DNA from: an uncultured Mycoplasmatota bacterium
GTDB lineage: Bacteria > Bacillota_I > Bacilli_A > RF39 > UBA660
Direction: 5' to 3'
DNA length: 64,000 nt
Assembly (NCBI GenBank): GCA_900550255.1
Contig: URQZ01000004.1
Location: 9,481 to 73,480 of the forward strand
Part shown: positions 499-61,841 of the stretch, one piece after another
Position numbering within the stretch: position 1 is the stretch's first letter
Layout: every line of letters begins with the position of its first letter
The notes under the pieces: model-generated
Told to the model about the DNA's origin: nothing
Seen by the model: the letters and a program-made list of their open reading frames with translations, nothing else
Databases searched by the model: none
Position numbers and translations under genes: made by a program

Positions 499-2253
499 CT
501 ATTCTTTATTATCTATTACTTCCTTCATCATAGAAATAAATTCATCTTGTGATAAAGTTGTTGTTTCTTGACTTCCAAACTTACGATAACTTATCTCCTT
601 ATTATCTCTTTCCTTATCACCAAGTATTAATGTATAAGGAATTTTTCTTGTTTGACTTTCACGCATACGATAACCAAGTTTTTCATCACGACTATCAAGT
701 TCTACTCTAAAATTATTTTCTCTAAGTAATTCTTCTACTTCTTTAGAATATTCTAAATGATATTCATTATTAACAGGAATAATATTTATTTGTGTTGGTG
801 CAAGCCAAGTTGGGAACGCTCCTTTTGTCTCTTCCATTAAAAAGGCCGTAAATCTATCAAATGTACCAAAAATAGCTCTATGTAATACTACTGGTACTTG
901 TTTTTCACCCTTATTATCAATATAAGATAAATCAAATCTTCTTGGAAGTAAGAAATCTAATTGACATGTTGATAAAGTAACCTCTGGTCCTACAGCTGGT
1001 TTTACTTCTACATCTAATTTTGGTCCATAGAAAGCTGCTTCCCCAACCGCTTCAAAATACTCTACATTTAATTCATTTAATACTTCTCTTAATTTATCTT
1101 CAGCATTATTCCACATTTCATCATCATCGTAGTACTTTTCTTTATCTTCCTTATCTCTTAAGGATAATCTAAATTTATATTCAGTAATTCCAAAATCCTT
1201 ATATACATCTAGAATTAGACTAACAACTTTTTTAAATTCATCTTTTATTTGTTCTGGCATAACAAACAAATGGGCATCATTTTGACACATGCATCTAACT
1301 CTTTCAAGTCCTTTTACAGCTCCTGATGCTTCATATCTAAAATCAGTTGCGAACTCACCTATTCTAATTGGTAAATCTCTATATGAATGCAATTTGTTTT
1401 TAAAAACTAACATATGATGTGGACAATTCATTGGTCTTAAAACAAATTCTTCATCATCAACTTTCATAGATGGAAACATATTTTCTTTATAATGATCCCA
1501 GTGTCCAGAAGTTTTATATAAATCAACAGTACCTACACATGGCGTATATACGTGTTGATATCCTAACTTTTGTTCTTTTTCATATATATAATTTTCTAAT
1601 TGTTTTTTTATTAAAGCTCCATTAGGTAACCATAAAGGCATTCCAGCTCCTACTAATTCATTAGTCATAAAAATATCTAAATCTTTACCTATTTTACGAT
1701 GATCACGAAGTTTTGCTTCCTCTAATTCTTTTAAATAATCATTTAAATCTTCTTCATTTTCAAAACAAACACCATAAATACGTTGTAACATCTTATTTTT
1801 AGCATCATTTTTCCAATAAGCACCACTTACTTTTAAAAGTTTAAAATATTTCATTGATTTAGTTGTAGGCATATGTGGACCACAACACAAATCAATAAAA
1901 TCATCTTGTTTATAAGCAGAAATTACTGTATCATCTTCATCCATTCTTTCAATTAAATCAATTTTATATGGGTCATCTTTAAACATATCTAATGCTTCTT
2001 TTTTTGATAATTCAATACGATTAATATATTTATCTCCTTTAGAGATTTTTTTCATTTCTTTTTCTATTTTAGGTAAATCTTCTTCTTTAATTACATCATC
2101 GCCTAAATCTATGTCATAATAAAATCCACTATCAATTACAGGTCCTACCCAAAATTTAGCATTTGGATATAAGTGTTTTACCGCATGAGCAAGTAAATGC
2201 GCACAACTATGATTTAAAATATTCAATTTTTCATTTTCTTTTATATTTATCAT
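499..2253 (-). CDS. thrS: threonine--tRNA ligase (ThrRS), short form lacking the N-terminal TGS domain
   Basis: The translation starts at the N2 editing-domain block 'HSCAHLLAHAV...VGPVIDSGFYYD'. Class II motifs are present (e.g. 'RVRCMCQNDAHLF', 'FRLSLRD') and the C-terminal anticodon-binding region is intact. The start codon overlaps the upstream ORF stop as TAATG. A T-box leader lies upstream of the operon. Confidence 0.95.
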   Translation of the reverse strand: MINIKENEKLNILNHSCAHLLAHAVKHLYPNAKFWVGPVIDSGFYYDIDLGDDVIKEEDLPKIEKEMKKISKGDKYINRIELSKKEALDMFKDDPYKIDLIERMDEDDTVISAYKQDDFIDLCCGPHMPTTKSMKYFKLLKVSGAYWKNDAKNKMLQRIYGVCFENEEDLNDYLKELEEAKLRDHRKIGKDLDIFMTNELVGAGMPLWLPNGALIKKQLENYIYEKEQKLGYQHVYTPCVGTVDLYKTSGHWDHYKENMFPSMKVDDEEFVLRPMNCPHHMLVFKNKLHSYRDLPIRIGEFATDFRYEASGAVKGLERVRCMCQNDAHLFVMPEQIKDEFKKVVSLILDVYKDFGITEYKFRLSLRDKEDKEKYYDDDEMWNNAEDKLREVLNELNVEYFEAVGEAAFYGPKLDVEVKPAVGPEVTLSTCQLDFLLPRRFDLSYIDNKGEKQVPVVLHRAIFGTFDRFTAFLMEETKGAFPTWLAPTQINIIPVNNEYHLEYSKEVEELLRENNFRVELDSRDEKLGYRMRESQTRKIPYTLILGDKERDNKEISYRKFGSQETTTLSQDEFISMMKEVIDNKE

Positions 2254-2759
2254 TAATATCTTCCTTTTCCTTTAATATGTCTTTGACTATTTAATATATA
2301 TTTCTTTTGTCTATTTACACTAACAGTAATAACTAATTCCTCTTCCTCTGGAATTTTATCTACTACATTACCTAGCCAATCTTCTTCTAAATTTTCTTCA
2401 CTTAAAATTGCTTTTCTAATTAAACGTAATTTTTTATAATCCTTAGTTGTTTGAAGCTCCTTTAAAAGTTTTCCAAATTTTAAAACTAATGGATTTTCAT
2501 AAGCAATCATTTTTCCTTTTTTCTTTTTACTACTTTCTTCTCTTACTAAAACATAAGTTCCATTATTCAACGTTTGATCATTTACTTCTTTCAAACTTAC
2601 TCTAGTTGGTAAAGCCTCACCTTTTTCCATTAAATATTCAAACATTTTATAATGCGTTAATTTACCTGTATTCTCATATTTGACATTTAAATAAGTTTCC
2701 ATAAACTCTCTAATTCCAATTACTTGATTTAAACTTACAATTGTTCTGTTTTTTCCCAT
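2253..2759 (-). CDS. hypothetical 168-aa protein, first cistron of the T-box-regulated thrS operon, translationally coupled to thrS
   Basis: An AGGGAG RBS sits directly downstream of the T-box terminator. The stop codon overlaps the thrS ATG as TAATG. The protein is basic and Lys-rich. I recognise no motif. Confidence 0.6.
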   Translation of the reverse strand: MGKNRTIVSLNQVIGIREFMETYLNVKYENTGKLTHYKMFEYLMEKGEALPTRVSLKEVNDQTLNNGTYVLVREESSKKKKGKMIAYENPLVLKFGKLLKELQTTKDYKKLRLIRKAILSEENLEEDWLGNVVDKIPEEEELVITVSVNRQKKYILNSQRHIKGKGRY

Positions 2760-2774
2760 ACTATCAACTCCCCT

Positions 2775-2990
2775 ATAAAAAAAACACTCCTACTAACCAA
2801 GGAGCGTATAAACGCGGTACCATCCTACCTTATAACTTAATTAAAGTTTTAACGGACCAATCCGGAAATCTCTTTCGAGTTCAATTCATGGGTAGTAATT
2901 ATCAATTATTATATCAGTTTTCACCACCACTGACTCTCTTTAATAAAGTCCTCAATAACCATGTCCCACTCAAAATTTTTAACTATGTCT
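2775..2990 (-). promoter_or_regulatory. T-box riboswitch leader of the thrS operon
   Basis: On the minus strand the conserved T-box sequence reads 'AAGGTAGGATGGTACCGCG' (plus strand 2813..2832 'cgcggtaccatcctacctta'). It is followed by a terminator hairpin (GCTCCT...AGGAG) and a U-run (plus 2777..2808). Upstream there is an AGAGA-containing stem I region that includes an ACU triplet consistent with a Thr specifier. Confidence 0.8.
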
Positions 2991-2992
2991 TT

Positions 2993-3021
2993 ATTTTATT
3001 CTTAAAATTAATTTTTGTCAA
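2993..3021 (-). promoter_or_regulatory. sigma-A type promoter driving the thrS T-box leader
   Basis: On the minus strand the -35 is TTGACA (3021..3016), the spacer is 17 nt, and the -10 is TAAAAT (2998..2993). Confidence 0.6.
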
Positions 3022-3143
3022 TAGAATTTATAGAATCTGTAGTAATGTTATCTAGAAAAATCAACTATATTATTGACTTTTTATTGACATTAAATGTTTG
3101 TAAATAAAAATAATTGGTTTATAATAAAAATAGAGGTGATATT

Positions 3144-59907: not shown

Positions 59908-59934
59908 ACAAAAAAACATGAGACTTTTCTCATG
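59908..59934 (-). terminator. terminator of serS, overlapping its stop codon
   Basis: The hairpin catgaga-cttt-tctcatg is followed by a U-run on the minus strand. Confidence 0.55.
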
Positions 59935-61213
59935 CTTTTTCTATTTTTTCTTTACCACCCATATAAGGTCTTAAAGCTACAGGTATTTTAATACTTCCAT
60001 CCTCTTGATAATTATTTTCTAAAAACGCAATCAATCCTCGTGGAGTTGCAAGAACGGTATTATTTAAAGTTGAAACTAAATAATTTCCATTTTCACCCTT
60101 AGCTCTAATAGATAGACGTCTAGCTTGTGCATCACCTAAAGTAGAACAAGAACCAACTTCAAAATATTTCTTTTGTCTTGGACTCCATGCTTCAACATCG
60201 CATGATTTTACTTTAAGATCTGCAAGATCTCCTGAACAACATTCAAGAGTTCTAACAGGAATATCTAAGCTTCTAAAGAAATCTACAGTAAACTTCCACA
60301 TTTTGTTATACCAATCCATGGCATCTTCTTGTTTACAAATAACAACCATTTCTTGTTTTTCAAATTGATGAACTCTATATAGACCTCTTTCTTCAATTCC
60401 ATGAGCTCCAACTTCTTTTCTAAAACATGGTGAATATGAAGTAAGAGCAATAGGTAATTCTTTTTCATTTAAGATTTGATTTTTAAATTTTCCTATCATT
60501 GAATGTTCACTAGTTCCAATTAAATATAAATCTTCATTTTCAATTTTGTACATCATTTCATCCATTTCTTCAAATGACATAACACCATCTACAACATCAC
60601 TTCTTATCATAAACGGAGGTATACAATAATTGAATCCTCTATCGATCATAAAATCTCTAGCATAAGATAACATAGCACTGTGAAGTCGTGCGATATCACC
60701 CATTAAATAATAAAAACCATTCCCACTTGTTCTTCCAGCCGCTTCTTTATCAAGACCACATAATGATTCACAAATATCTGCATGATATGGAATTTCATAA
60801 CTTGGAACAAATGGCTCTCCAAATTTCTCAACTTCCACATTTTCACTATCATCCTTACCAATTGGAACAGAACTATCAATGATTTGTGGAATAACTAACA
60901 TTTTCTTTCTTAATTCAGCATTTAAAACATTTTCTTCTTTTTCAATATCAACAAGTTTTTTATTTATCTCTACAACTTGTTGTTTTCTTTCATTTGCTTC
61001 ATCAACCTTTTTATCACGCATTAAAGATCCAATTTCACTACTAATCGTATTACGATCTTTTCGCATACTATCCCCTTGTTGTTTTAAACTTCTAATTTTT
61101 TCATCTAATTCTAATACCTCATCTACTAATGGGAGTTTTTTATCTTGAAACTTCTTTTTAATATTTTCCTTAACCAATTCTTTATTCTCTCTAACAAATT
61201 TAATATCTAACAT
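59930..61213 (-). CDS. serS: serine--tRNA ligase
   Basis: There is an N-terminal coiled-coil arm. Class II motif 2/3 blocks are present ('FRKEVGAHG', 'GSCSTLGDAQARRL'). Confidence 0.95.
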   Translation of the reverse strand: MLDIKFVRENKELVKENIKKKFQDKKLPLVDEVLELDEKIRSLKQQGDSMRKDRNTISSEIGSLMRDKKVDEANERKQQVVEINKKLVDIEKEENVLNAELRKKMLVIPQIIDSSVPIGKDDSENVEVEKFGEPFVPSYEIPYHADICESLCGLDKEAAGRTSGNGFYYLMGDIARLHSAMLSYARDFMIDRGFNYCIPPFMIRSDVVDGVMSFEEMDEMMYKIENEDLYLIGTSEHSMIGKFKNQILNEKELPIALTSYSPCFRKEVGAHGIEERGLYRVHQFEKQEMVVICKQEDAMDWYNKMWKFTVDFFRSLDIPVRTLECCSGDLADLKVKSCDVEAWSPRQKKYFEVGSCSTLGDAQARRLSIRAKGENGNYLVSTLNNTVLATPRGLIAFLENNYQEDGSIKIPVALRPYMGGKEKIEKA

Positions 61214-61214
61214 T

Positions 61215-61625
61215 TTATTTCTTCTCCTTCTTCTTTATTTTTTTATTATCATAACTAAATTCAACTAATTTTACTTTTAAAGCAATCAAATTATTACTAT
61301 TTATAATTCTTTCAATAAACATCTTTTTTGTTTCATCCTTTTCTTGTGTAAGTATCTTTATCGTGTTTACTATATCATCAGAAAAACCTACATCAAGTAA
61401 TTCCTCTGGAAAAATATTTATCTCTGTAATTATATCTTTTAGTAAAAAAACTATCTTTTCGGTAACAGAGTTCATCATATCACAATTAGAATATAATTTA
61501 TCTATATATTCATCTTTACTTTTATATACTCTATCAGTAATAATTAAAGCTTTATGATACATATCATCTTCTGTTTTCAGCATTCTATAACCTAATAGAT
61601 CAAAATAATTCAATAATCCATTCAT
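61215..61625 (-). CDS. small degenerate HD-domain (RelA/SpoT-hydrolase-like) protein, translationally coupled upstream of serS
   Basis: The start is reassigned to the ATG at 61623..61625, which has a GGAGG RBS. The stop lies 1 nt before the serS ATG. The blocks 'YHKALIITD', 'LLKDIITEI' and 'LIALKVKLVEFSYDN' align in order with the H / HD / 'LADRLHN' blocks of RelA/SpoT HD domains. HD is replaced by KD. Confidence 0.45.
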   Translation of the reverse strand: MNGLLNYFDLLGYRMLKTEDDMYHKALIITDRVYKSKDEYIDKLYSNCDMMNSVTEKIVFLLKDIITEINIFPEELLDVGFSDDIVNTIKILTQEKDETKKMFIERIINSNNLIALKVKLVEFSYDNKKIKKKEKK

Positions 61626-61639
61626 TTGATAACCTCCTA

Positions 61640-61835
61640 AAAAGAAAAAAAGACTAATTATAGGAGCAAAAATATGCGGTACCATCCTAATTAGTCTTAA
61701 TTTAAATAACGGTATTAACCGGAAATGTTTGCATTTCACTCAAGAGTAGATTCATAAAAGATTAATGTAAGTTTCCATCAACCACTTACTTTCTATAAAA
61801 AATTACTTTTATTACTATTCTCTATCAACGCTTTC
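61640..61835 (-). promoter_or_regulatory. T-box riboswitch leader of the (HD-like ORF)-serS operon
   Basis: On the minus strand the conserved T-box reads 'AATTAGGATGGTACCGCAT' (plus 61669..61688). It sits inside a long terminator hairpin agactaatta...taattagtct followed by U7. An AGAGAAAG stem I start lies upstream. Confidence 0.75.
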
Positions 61836-61841
61836 TCTTAA

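What the first reader, a model, noticed from the sequence alone, without database searches (positions are those of the whole stretch)
2253..3021. thrS T-box operon carries an extra coupled 168-aa ORF, and ThrRS lacks its TGS domain
A sigma-A promoter and T-box leader (conserved GGTAGGATGGTACCGCG, terminator plus U-run) precede an unknown 168-aa basic protein, not thrS itself. That protein's stop overlaps the thrS ATG (TAATG). The ThrRS encoded here begins at the N2/editing-domain block (HSCAHLLA...GPVIDSGFYYD). It lacks the roughly 60-aa N-terminal TGS domain present in canonical bacterial ThrRS. The coupled upstream ORF might be a trans-acting accessory module, for example a replacement for a lost N-terminal function, or it might be an unrelated passenger under amino-acid control.
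Basis: partly seen in the sequence, partly recalled or inferred. Interest (0 to 1): 0.55.

Follow-up and report, generated by a model that had tools for sequence, protein, structure and literature searches.

The report
Optional fast-evolving gene ahead of thrS
A real but unannotated small protein gene sits between a threonine-sensing RNA switch and a shortened threonyl-tRNA synthetase gene, but relatives show this position is a swappable slot, so the protein is an optional, fast-evolving add-on and not a stand-in for the enzyme's missing domain.

Summary
On the minus strand there is a promoter, then a Thr-specific (ACU) T-box leader with terminator, then a 168-aa ORF (2759..2253). The ORF's stop overlaps the ATG (TAATG) of a 584-aa thrS that lacks the N1/TGS domain.

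The ORF ("X") is a real gene. It is under purifying selection and gives a confident AF2 model (pLDDT 84.5). It has 129 representative relatives among 1.84 billion proteins. It matches nothing in Pfam, NCBIfam, PHROGs, PADLOC, PDB, or the phage and plasmid collections.

The TGS-replacement idea is not supported. I sampled 80 metagenomic loci using the thrS N-terminus alone. All encode the same TGS-less ThrRS with intact editing motifs. Of the 74 classifiable loci, 23 have no ORF between T-box and thrS and about 16 have X. The rest carry unrelated ORFs: small basic proteins, a nucleotidyltransferase, a dUTPase and an MBL hydrolase. X diverges far faster than ThrRS (median identity 31% vs 74%). 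In two lineages X lies outside the T-box unit.

Best reading: X is a lineage-specific, dispensable accessory gene that stays next to thrS. Here it is co-expressed with thrS when tRNA-Thr is uncharged. Its biochemical role is unknown, and any nucleic-acid or ThrRS-associated role is inference only.

The parts
2993..3021 (-). Sigma-70/SigA-type promoter: TTGACA (3021..3016), 17-nt spacer, TAAAAT (2998..2993)
   Evidence: Consensus scan, 11 of 12 matches. Coordinates. Function inferred; similar-looking sites are common in this 26% GC DNA (10 found, 6.3 expected).
2797..2982 (-). T-box leader RNA with Thr specificity
   Evidence: Rfam RF00230, 85.7 bits, E 2.6e-19, full-length model match. This is below the gathering score of 93. 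Orthologous leaders occupy the same position in relatives.
2894..2896 (-). Specifier codon ACU (Thr) followed by the conserved purine A
   Evidence: Read from the Rfam alignment. Invariant AUUACUACC in four aligned leaders. Coordinates.
2813..2829 (-). Conserved T-box sequence GGUAGGAUGGUACCGCG. It contains the UGGU bulge that would pair with the tRNA ACCA end.
   Evidence: The same motif was found upstream of thrS in 73 of 80 metagenomic loci.
2774..2807 (-). Intrinsic terminator: hairpin 2807..2784 plus U-run. Its 5' arm is shared with the antiterminator.
   Evidence: Terminator scan: 8 pairs, 4 G-C, then TTTTTTTATA; 1 found against 0.1 expected. Antiterminator pairing is visible in the alignment.
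2253..2759 (-). Gene X: 168-aa basic protein of an unannotated family. Folded domain ~10-135, acidic linker 123-145, basic tail 146-168 with a conserved NRxK motif.
   Evidence: ORF list. SD GGGGAG at 2773..2768. Homologues. dN/dS 0.18-0.55. AF2 pLDDT 84.5. Charge profile.
2253..2257 (-). TAATG overlap of the X stop with the thrS start (translational-coupling junction). The thrS SD AAGGAAG lies inside the last X codons.
   Evidence: Sequence. TATTAATG is conserved in L001, L004, L007, L008 and L011.
499..2253 (-). thrS: 584-aa threonyl-tRNA synthetase lacking the N1/TGS domain. Editing motifs HxxxH and CxGPH are intact.
   Evidence: Pfam and NCBIfam. PDB alignments start at residue 60-67 of full-length ThrRS. 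Editing motifs present in all 82 clade members checked.

Best explanation
SHOWN:
- A Thr-specific T-box leader gates one transcript that carries gene X and then thrS.
- Only about 24 nt (containing the SD) separate the terminator's U-run from the X start, and the X stop overlaps the thrS ATG. X and ThrRS should therefore both be made when uncharged tRNA-Thr stabilises the antiterminator, and thrS translation is coupled to X translation.
- X is a genuine protein-coding gene of a lineage-restricted, unannotated family. It evolves much faster than ThrRS.
- The position between the T-box terminator and thrS is a variable slot in this clade. It can be empty, hold X, or hold unrelated ORFs.
- ThrRS is TGS-less with intact editing motifs in every case. 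X is therefore not a required substitute for the lost domain.

INFERRED:
- X is an old occupant of the thrS neighbourhood that has been lost, displaced or replaced repeatedly.
- Its architecture is a compact basic domain with helix / helix / helix / beta-hairpin / two-helix topology, an acidic linker, and a lysine/arginine tail with a conserved NRxK motif. This suggests a binding or adaptor protein for nucleic acid or for ThrRS, made during tRNA-Thr shortage. The logic would resemble the T-box-controlled anti-TRAP protein.
- I put only about 0.25 on that functional part. The operon, slot and dispensability part I put at about 0.8.
For: Regulatory anatomy.

X is a real gene:
- 21 close clusters and 129 representatives at E<=1e-3.
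- dN/dS is 0.18 for the unsaturated pair L001/L004, against 0.04 for thrS.
- Between strains, X has 30 synonymous and 16 non-synonymous codon differences.
- The AF2 model from 47 sequences has pLDDT 84.5.

Linkage to thrS:
- 11 of 12 contexts chosen by X homology have X directly upstream of a TGS-less thrS (gap -7 to +9 nt), with T-box features wherever enough upstream sequence is held (10 of the 11; only the terminator is on the contig in L100).
- The 12th context has X 2.7 kb upstream.

Variable slot:
- The distance from the T-box motif to the thrS ATG ranges from 57 to 1111 nt across 73 loci.
- Slot classes: none 23, X ~16, Y 13, nucleotidyltransferase 6, small helical ORFs 6, Z 5, dUTPase 3, MBL 1, orphan 1.
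- Rfam confirms the T-box upstream of each class in 9 of 10 loci tested.
- X is scattered over the whole ThrRS tree, interleaved with the other states.
- The empty-slot loci have no X homologue anywhere in the sequence held, which is at most 3 kb on each side of the thrS N-terminal match and often less.

Fast evolution:
- Median X identity is 31% against 74% for ThrRS.
- Within one species X DNA is 89.7% identical, against 98.0% for thrS and 98.6% for the flanks.
Against: - Dispensability is inferred from at most 3 kb of flank held per side (less in many loci). L098 and L026/L028 show that X can lie outside the slot. A copy elsewhere in the 'empty' genomes is therefore not excluded.
- The metagenomic sample is redundant: 76 loci collapse to 44 clusters at 95% identity.
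- The neighbour-joining tree uses only 300 residues, so the number of independent losses is uncertain.
- No experimental expression data were available.
- The fold resemblance to winged-helix proteins is not significant. The best Foldseek hits are E 0.68 against PDB and E 0.17 against BFVD, with probability <=0.2.
- The basic C-terminus is partly forced by the purine-rich thrS Shine-Dalgarno sequence and by the A-rich genome.
Confidence: 0.6

Rival explanations
1. X is a pure hitch-hiker. The stretch between the T-box terminator and thrS is simply a permissive, well-expressed landing site, and X's function has nothing to do with threonine, tRNA-Thr or ThrRS.
For: - The slot also holds a dUTPase, an NTP_transf_2 nucleotidyltransferase and an MBL-fold hydrolase, none with an obvious link to threonine.
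- The slot is empty in 23 loci.
- Strains of the window's species differ by gene insertions on both sides of the operon.
- In this same window a Ser T-box is followed by an unrelated 136-aa ORF and then serS.
Against: - X was next to thrS in 12 of 12 contexts chosen by X homology.
- In the thrS-sampled loci L026/L028, X also stays next to thrS while lying outside the T-box unit.
- X is spread across the whole clade.
- It has no relatives in phage, plasmid or viral-contig collections.
This looks like long-term vertical retention beside thrS, not repeated insertion.
Confidence: 0.27
2. One reading: X is a trans-acting accessory subunit that replaces the function of the lost N1/TGS domain of ThrRS.
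For: - X is seen only beside TGS-less thrS.
- Translational coupling would give co-production.
- The basic tail could contact tRNA.
Against: - TGS-less ThrRS with intact editing motifs occurs without X in 58 of 74 classifiable loci sampled by thrS. Of these, 23 have no slot ORF at all.
- X diverges to ~31% identity where ThrRS stays at ~74%.
- Pfam finds no TGS match at E<=1.
- The predicted fold is helical plus one hairpin, not a beta-grasp.
- In L098 and L026/L028, X is not co-transcribed from the T-box.
Confidence: 0.06
3. X, and perhaps the small basic Y and Z proteins, is a conflict or immunity-type modulator of ThrRS or tRNA-Thr, for example protection against a ThrRS-targeting toxin or antibiotic. 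That would explain the rapid divergence and turnover.
For: - X evolves very fast compared with the adjacent essential gene.
- A divergent allele exists inside one species. Synonymous differences occur in 30 of 168 codons in X, against 30 of 584 in thrS.
- The slot occupant turns over repeatedly.
Against: - No PADLOC defence-model hit and no phage or plasmid relatives.
- dN/dS stays well below 1.
- No partner toxin gene is seen.
Confidence: 0.06
4. The 168-codon ORF is a chance open frame in an extended leader and makes no protein.
For: No annotation or family match anywhere.
Against: - The frame is conserved down to ~30% identity with invariant residues.
- dN/dS is below 1.
- It has a strong SD.
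- The AF2 model is confident.
- A 168-codon open frame is very unlikely by chance in 26% GC DNA.
Confidence: 0.01

Closest known systems
T-box-regulated aaRS operons in Firmicutes, including those where the synthetase is the second gene or where the first gene is hypothetical (Wels et al. 2008, PMC2494555)
   Same: - A specifier-codon T-box with terminator/antiterminator controls a synthetase gene. thrS is one of the most consistently T-box-regulated genes.
- In that survey, 8% of T-boxes precede genes of unknown or unrelated function.
- cysS and asnS are often second in their operon.
   Different: - The promoter-proximal gene here belongs to a family with no annotation and is translationally coupled to thrS.
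- The position is hypervariable among close relatives (empty, X, Y, Z, enzymes). I did not find that described.
rtpA (anti-TRAP) of Bacillus subtilis: a small regulatory protein whose synthesis is gated by a Trp T-box
   Same: The logic matches: a small non-enzymatic protein is produced only when a specific tRNA is uncharged. It is cited in Wels et al.; the mechanism is from my own knowledge.
   Different: - Anti-TRAP is a much smaller (~53 aa) Cys-rich zinc protein (from memory). X is 168 aa and contains no cysteine (sequence).
- No target of X is known.
- X is followed by the synthetase gene itself.
N1/TGS-less threonyl-tRNA synthetases
   Same: The domain order is N2 editing, catalytic core, then anticodon-binding domain, without the ~60-aa N1 domain. 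From memory, ThrRS of about 560-590 aa in some Mollicutes have the same truncation. I could not verify this with the tools.
   Different: The editing site is intact here (HxxxH and CxGPH in all 82 sequences). The literature notes that Mycoplasma ThrRS are exceptions regarding serine misactivation and editing.
Winged-helix DNA-binding proteins with a C-terminal helix (PadR, RTP, MarR)
   Same: They are the recurrent top Foldseek hits for both AF2 models. The secondary-structure order is similar: three helices, a beta-hairpin, then long helices.
   Different: - All hits have E>=0.68, probability <=0.11 and TM <=0.29.
- The putative recognition helix is only ~6 residues.
- There is no sequence-profile match.

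Membership tests
T-box leader (Rfam RF00230) | Stem I with a specifier loop presenting a codon followed by a purine | tested here: met
   ACU followed by A, in the GAUAAUUACUACCCAUGA context, aligned to the specifier region of the model. Invariant in four orthologous leaders.
T-box leader (Rfam RF00230) | Conserved T-box sequence with a UGGN bulge in an antiterminator that competes with a terminator hairpin plus U-run | tested here: met
   AGGAUGGUACCGCG...ACGCUCCU forms the antiterminator in the Rfam alignment. ACGCUCCU is also the 5' arm of the terminator at 2807..2784, which is followed by T8.
T-box leader (Rfam RF00230) | Score at or above Rfam's curated gathering threshold (93 bits) | tested here: inconclusive
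   85.7 bits, 7 bits short, so it is not reported at 'gathering'. However E is 2.6e-19 with a full-length match, and orthologous leaders reach 92.7-102 bits.
Threonine-tRNA ligase (TIGR00418 thrS equivalog) | Whole-protein score above the curated cut-off, with editing, class II core and anticodon-binding domains | tested here: met
   711.7 bits against a cut-off of 383.65. Pfam finds tRNA_SAD, tRNA-synt_2b and HGTP_anticodon. 781 bits to S. aureus ThrRS 1nyq.
Canonical bacterial ThrRS architecture (N1/TGS + N2 + core + ABD) | N-terminal TGS (beta-grasp) domain of ~60 residues | tested here: not met
   No TGS hit in Pfam. The alignment starts at residue 60 of E. coli ThrRS and residue 67 of S. 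aureus ThrRS. All 120 closest homologues are 518-587 aa without TGS.
TGS domain (as a stand-alone replacement encoded by X) | Sequence or fold similarity of X to the TGS beta-grasp domain | tested here: not met
   No TGS match at E<=1. The AF2 model is mainly helical with one hairpin. No beta-grasp proteins appear among the Foldseek hits.
Winged helix-turn-helix regulators (PadR/RTP/MarR-like) | Significant structural or profile similarity to a wHTH domain | tested here: inconclusive
   wHTH proteins are the recurrent top hits, but with E 0.68-4, probability <=0.11 and TM <=0.29. No profile hit in PDB or Pfam.
Integron-like gene cassette in the slot | An attC recombination site (imperfect inverted repeat of 60-140 nt) at the 3' end of each cassette | tested here: not met
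   Slot ORFs end from 7 nt inside thrS to 17 nt before its ATG, which leaves no room for an attC site.
Known anti-phage defence proteins (PADLOC-DB) | A match to a defence-system protein model | tested here: not met
   No hit for X. Only marginal hits for the nucleotidyltransferase occupant of other loci.

The most novel reading that the evidence does not exclude
The stretch between the Thr T-box terminator and thrS in this low-GC gut Bacilli clade is a previously undescribed kind of hot spot. It is a single-gene 'guest slot' that puts diverse, rapidly turning-over small proteins under uncharged-tRNA-Thr control and couples their translation to an essential synthetase. Occupants include X, Y, Z and short helical ORFs. 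X, the oldest occupant, would be a starvation-induced factor that binds ThrRS or nucleic acid.
Probability: 0.25. Interest if true: 0.65.

Novelty: new variant of a known kind. Interest (0 to 1): 0.45.

Why it matters
T-box control of thrS is textbook, and a TGS-less ThrRS on its own is a modest curiosity. Two things are new.

1. An unannotated protein family, with 129 representative clusters. In every context examined it lies next to thrS. It folds confidently but matches no known structure or family.

2. The T-box-to-thrS spacer behaves as a swappable slot among close relatives of a very common human-gut bacterium.

If the slot proteins act on ThrRS, tRNA-Thr or the starvation response, they would be a new class of tRNA-charging-gated effectors. 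If they do not, the locus is still a clean natural example of how new genes are recruited into, and lost from, a riboswitch-controlled essential operon.

The work also settles a practical point: loss of the N1/TGS domain in this clade needs no dedicated trans-acting replacement encoded in the operon.

Tried and rejected
- Family searches for X all gave nothing significant: Pfam, NCBIfam, PHROGs, PADLOC, and PDB sequence profiles. Pfam was also run on all 47 aligned members.
- The first AF2 model, from 8 sequences, was poor (pLDDT 59). It was replaced by the 47-sequence model.
- Foldseek against PDB (both models) and BFVD gave no hit better than E 0.17. I therefore do not file X as a winged-helix protein.
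- The profile search with A3 through the word-indexed database returned few distant members.
- The full-length ThrRS search returned only near-identical sequences. It did not reveal where TGS-containing relatives begin.
- The listing of cluster members gave no organism names.
- I tested whether the small Y family is a truncated X. hhalign gave probability 0.5%, so this is rejected.
- I tested whether the serS-leader ORF is related to X. It is not.
- I tested whether the 515-, 610- and 707-aa upstream proteins contain an X domain. They do not.
- I considered an integron-cassette origin of the slot and rejected it, because there is no room for attC.
- I considered a phage or plasmid origin. There were no matches.
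- Literature searches for N1-less bacterial ThrRS, or for ORFs between a T-box and thrS, found nothing specific.
Full report
**1. What is in the window**

The feature lies on the minus strand. A near-consensus promoter (TTGACA, 17 nt, TAAAAT; 3021..2993) precedes a full-length match to the Rfam T-box model at 2982..2797. That match scores 85.7 bits with E 2.6e-19 in a local search, 7 bits under the curated gathering score, so it is missed at default thresholds.

The specifier loop presents ACU (Thr) followed by A, at 2896..2894. The conserved GGUAGGAUGGUACCGCG box sits at 2829..2813. The 3' arm of the antiterminator (ACGCUCCU) is also the 5' arm of a terminator hairpin (2807..2784), which is followed by a run of T.

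About 24 nt after the T-run, and behind a GGGGAG Shine-Dalgarno, a 168-codon ORF starts at 2759. Its TAA overlaps the ATG of thrS as TAATG at 2257..2253.

The thrS product is 584 aa. It scores 711.7 bits on the thrS equivalog model and has the editing (tRNA_SAD), class II core and anticodon-binding domains. It has no TGS domain. Its residue 7 aligns with residue 67 of S. aureus ThrRS, and its residue 2 with residue 60 of E. coli ThrRS.

**2. The ORF is a real gene of an unannotated family**

A word-indexed search found only 21 clusters at 59-99% identity, none of them named. An exhaustive profile search of 1.84 billion representatives found 129 relatives at E<=1e-3 and 66 at E<=1e-10. Most are 140-185 aa; a few are 263-302 aa with an extra N-terminal helical part.

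An alignment of 47 members has invariant H36, Y87 and R115. S9, F19, V72, N89, P90, L119 and R150 are nearly invariant.

Evidence for selection:
- dN/dS is 0.18 for the only unsaturated pair, against 0.04 for the adjacent thrS.
- Between two strains of the window's species, X shows 30 synonymous and 16 non-synonymous codon changes.

With the 47-sequence alignment, AlphaFold2 gives a confident model (mean pLDDT 84.5; residues ~10-135 mostly above 90). Its order is a short strand, three helices, a beta-hairpin, two long helices and a small hairpin, followed by a low-confidence tail.

The protein has three charge zones: a basic domain (pI 9.7), an acidic linker at 123-145 (pI 4.1), and a basic tail at 146-168 (pI 11.2) that carries the conserved NRxK motif.

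No library recognises it. This covers Pfam (also run on all 47 members), NCBIfam, PHROGs, PADLOC and PDB sequence profiles. Foldseek against PDB and BFVD gives nothing better than E 0.17. The recurrent winged-helix proteins (RTP, PadR, MarR) among the top hits have probabilities <=0.11, so I treat them as a lead only. There are no relatives in phage genomes, plasmids or IMG/VR contigs.

**3. X is tied to thrS**

I fetched 12 independent contexts, chosen only by homology to X, spanning ~99% down to profile-only similarity.

- In 11 of them, X lies directly upstream of a TGS-less thrS, with spacing from -7 to +9 nt. These are 581-594 aa where complete and start M[IL/K]NIKE..LNHSCAHL.
- A Thr T-box precedes X wherever enough upstream sequence exists. 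It was detected by Rfam, or read directly in L009 and L012.
- The TATTAATG junction is conserved in the closer relatives.
- The exception is L098 (GCA_016297695.1). There the order is yqeY, X, a 707-aa protein, T-box, a 75-aa ORF, thrS.

**4. TGS-less thrS is not tied to X**

To sample without bias towards X, I scanned metagenome contigs with the ThrRS N-terminus alone. The best 80 loci all encode the same TGS-less enzyme, at 73-98% identity over the first 150 residues.

The distance from the T-box motif GGATGGTACCG[CT]G to the thrS ATG falls into discrete classes from 57 to 1111 nt. Of the 74 classifiable loci:

| Slot content | Loci |
|---|---|
| No ORF (57-85 nt) | 23 |
| X (one assigned by eye; three by BLAST linkage, not the profile) | ~16 |
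| 'Y': unrelated 78-96-aa family with a basic tail | 13 |
| 258-aa NTP_transf_2 nucleotidyltransferase | 6 |
| Short helical ORFs, 48-65 aa | 6 |
| 'Z': ~109-aa family | 5 |
| dUTPase | 3 |
| MBL-fold hydrolase | 1 |
| 142-aa orphan | 1 |

Supporting checks:
- Rfam confirmed the T-box immediately upstream of the slot in 9 of 10 loci representing these classes.
- All 82 ThrRS sequences keep the HxxxH and CxGPH editing motifs, whatever the slot holds.
- No X homologue occurs anywhere in the sequence held for the empty-slot loci, which is at most 3 kb on each side of the thrS N-terminal match (9 of the 23 have the full 3 kb upstream).
- On a neighbour-joining tree of ThrRS, X-bearing loci are scattered over all major branches and interleaved with the other states. 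This fits an old occupant that was lost or replaced repeatedly.
- In L026/L028 an X-like gene sits just upstream of the T-box, while a ~50-aa ORF occupies the slot. T-box control of X is therefore frequent but not universal.

**5. Rate of evolution**

Across 21 X-bearing loci, the median pairwise identity is 31% for X and 74% for the first 300 residues of ThrRS. Pairs with 88% identical ThrRS have ~40% identical X.

Within the window's own species, X DNA is 89.7% identical between two strains. thrS is 98.0% identical and the flanking 3 kb 98.6%. The excess is largely synonymous, which points to a divergent allele or local recombination rather than relaxed constraint alone.

**6. Interpretation**

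The regulatory mechanism can be stated with confidence. When tRNA-Thr is uncharged, the antiterminator forms, transcription reads through into X and thrS, and thrS translation is coupled to termination of X.

The idea that X stands in for the lost N1/TGS domain is not supported, for four reasons:
- The same truncated, editing-competent enzyme exists without X in most sampled lineages.
- X shows no TGS similarity.
- X evolves several-fold faster than its supposed partner.
- X is sometimes outside the T-box unit.

A purely accidental passenger is also not a full description. X is under purifying selection, is restricted to the thrS neighbourhood in every case seen, is absent from mobile-element collections, and is spread across the clade.

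My best reading is a lineage-specific, dispensable accessory gene occupying a variable slot. What the protein does remains open. A compact basic domain, an acidic linker and a conserved basic C-terminal motif suggest a binder of nucleic acid or of ThrRS, produced under tRNA-Thr shortage. This would be analogous in logic, not in sequence, to the T-box-gated anti-TRAP protein noted in the T-box survey of Wels et al.. That part is inference.

**7. Comparison with what is known**

T-box control of thrS is nearly universal in Firmicutes. About 8% of T-boxes precede genes of unknown or unrelated function, and some synthetases are second genes in their T-box operons. What I did not find described is a hypervariable single-gene slot between the T-box and the synthetase, or this protein family.

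I therefore rate it a new variant of a known kind, of moderate interest.

**8. Limits**

- The organism is known only as uncultured 'Tenericutes'/'Bacilli' gut MAGs.
- Only up to 3 kb of flank per side was available for the metagenomic loci, and less for many.
- The sample is redundant: 44 clusters at 95% identity.
- The tree is rough.
- No expression or interaction data exist.

Noticed in passing
window 59930-61837 (- strand): There is a second 'T-box, small unknown ORF, synthetase' operon in the same window. It has a Ser-specific (UCU) T-box at 61837..61659 (94.3 bits), a 136-aa ORF with no family match (61625..61215), and then serS (61213..59930) starting 1 nt after the ORF's stop. The 136-aa protein is unrelated to X. 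Unlike X, its exact sequence is found in 1260 index blocks of the collection, so it is not polymorphic.
   Followed up: partly
L016-L095 (metagenome loci), slot between the T-box and thrS: Besides X, the slot holds several other things. There are at least three further unannotated small-protein groups: Y (78-96 aa), Z (~109 aa) and short helical ORFs (48-75 aa), many with lysine/arginine-rich C-termini. There are also recognisable enzymes: dUTPase, NTP_transf_2 nucleotidyltransferase and an MBL-fold hydrolase.
   Followed up: partly
window 2253-2759 vs L096 4001-4507: Within one species, the X gene is a local divergence peak: 89.7% DNA identity, against 98.0% in thrS and 98.6% in the flanks. 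Synonymous changes are also in excess, which suggests an imported or long-maintained divergent allele.
   Followed up: yes
L096/L097 3001-3693 and 6527-7714, compared with window ~3022-3113 and ~477-498: Other strains of the same species carry two genes the window lacks. One is a 230-aa sigma-70-family gene between ldh and the thrS T-box promoter. The other is an LRR/Big_2 surface-protein gene just downstream of thrS. Both flanks of this operon are therefore insertion-prone.
   Followed up: no
L098 3001-6233; L026 1918-2589; L028 1915-2439: X-family genes can lie outside the T-box-controlled unit while still close to thrS. In L098 the order is X, a 707-aa protein, T-box, a 75-aa ORF, thrS. In L026/L028 an N-terminally extended X-like gene ends ~50 nt before the T-box.
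   Followed up: partly
L009 2435-4267; L098 3583-5706: A large (610-707 aa) unannotated protein family with no Pfam hit is a recurrent upstream neighbour of the thrS region. The two examples are 24% identical (E 4e-8).
   Followed up: no
L037 4814-5003: A second, stronger T-box (98.6 bits) lies just downstream of thrS in the nucleotidyltransferase-bearing loci. It presumably controls the next gene.
   Followed up: no
window 2505-2531 (X residues 77-85, SKKKKGKMI): The lysine-rich loop KKKKKGK at the tip of the predicted beta-hairpin is an insertion specific to the window's X subfamily and a few others. Most family members lack it.
   Followed up: no
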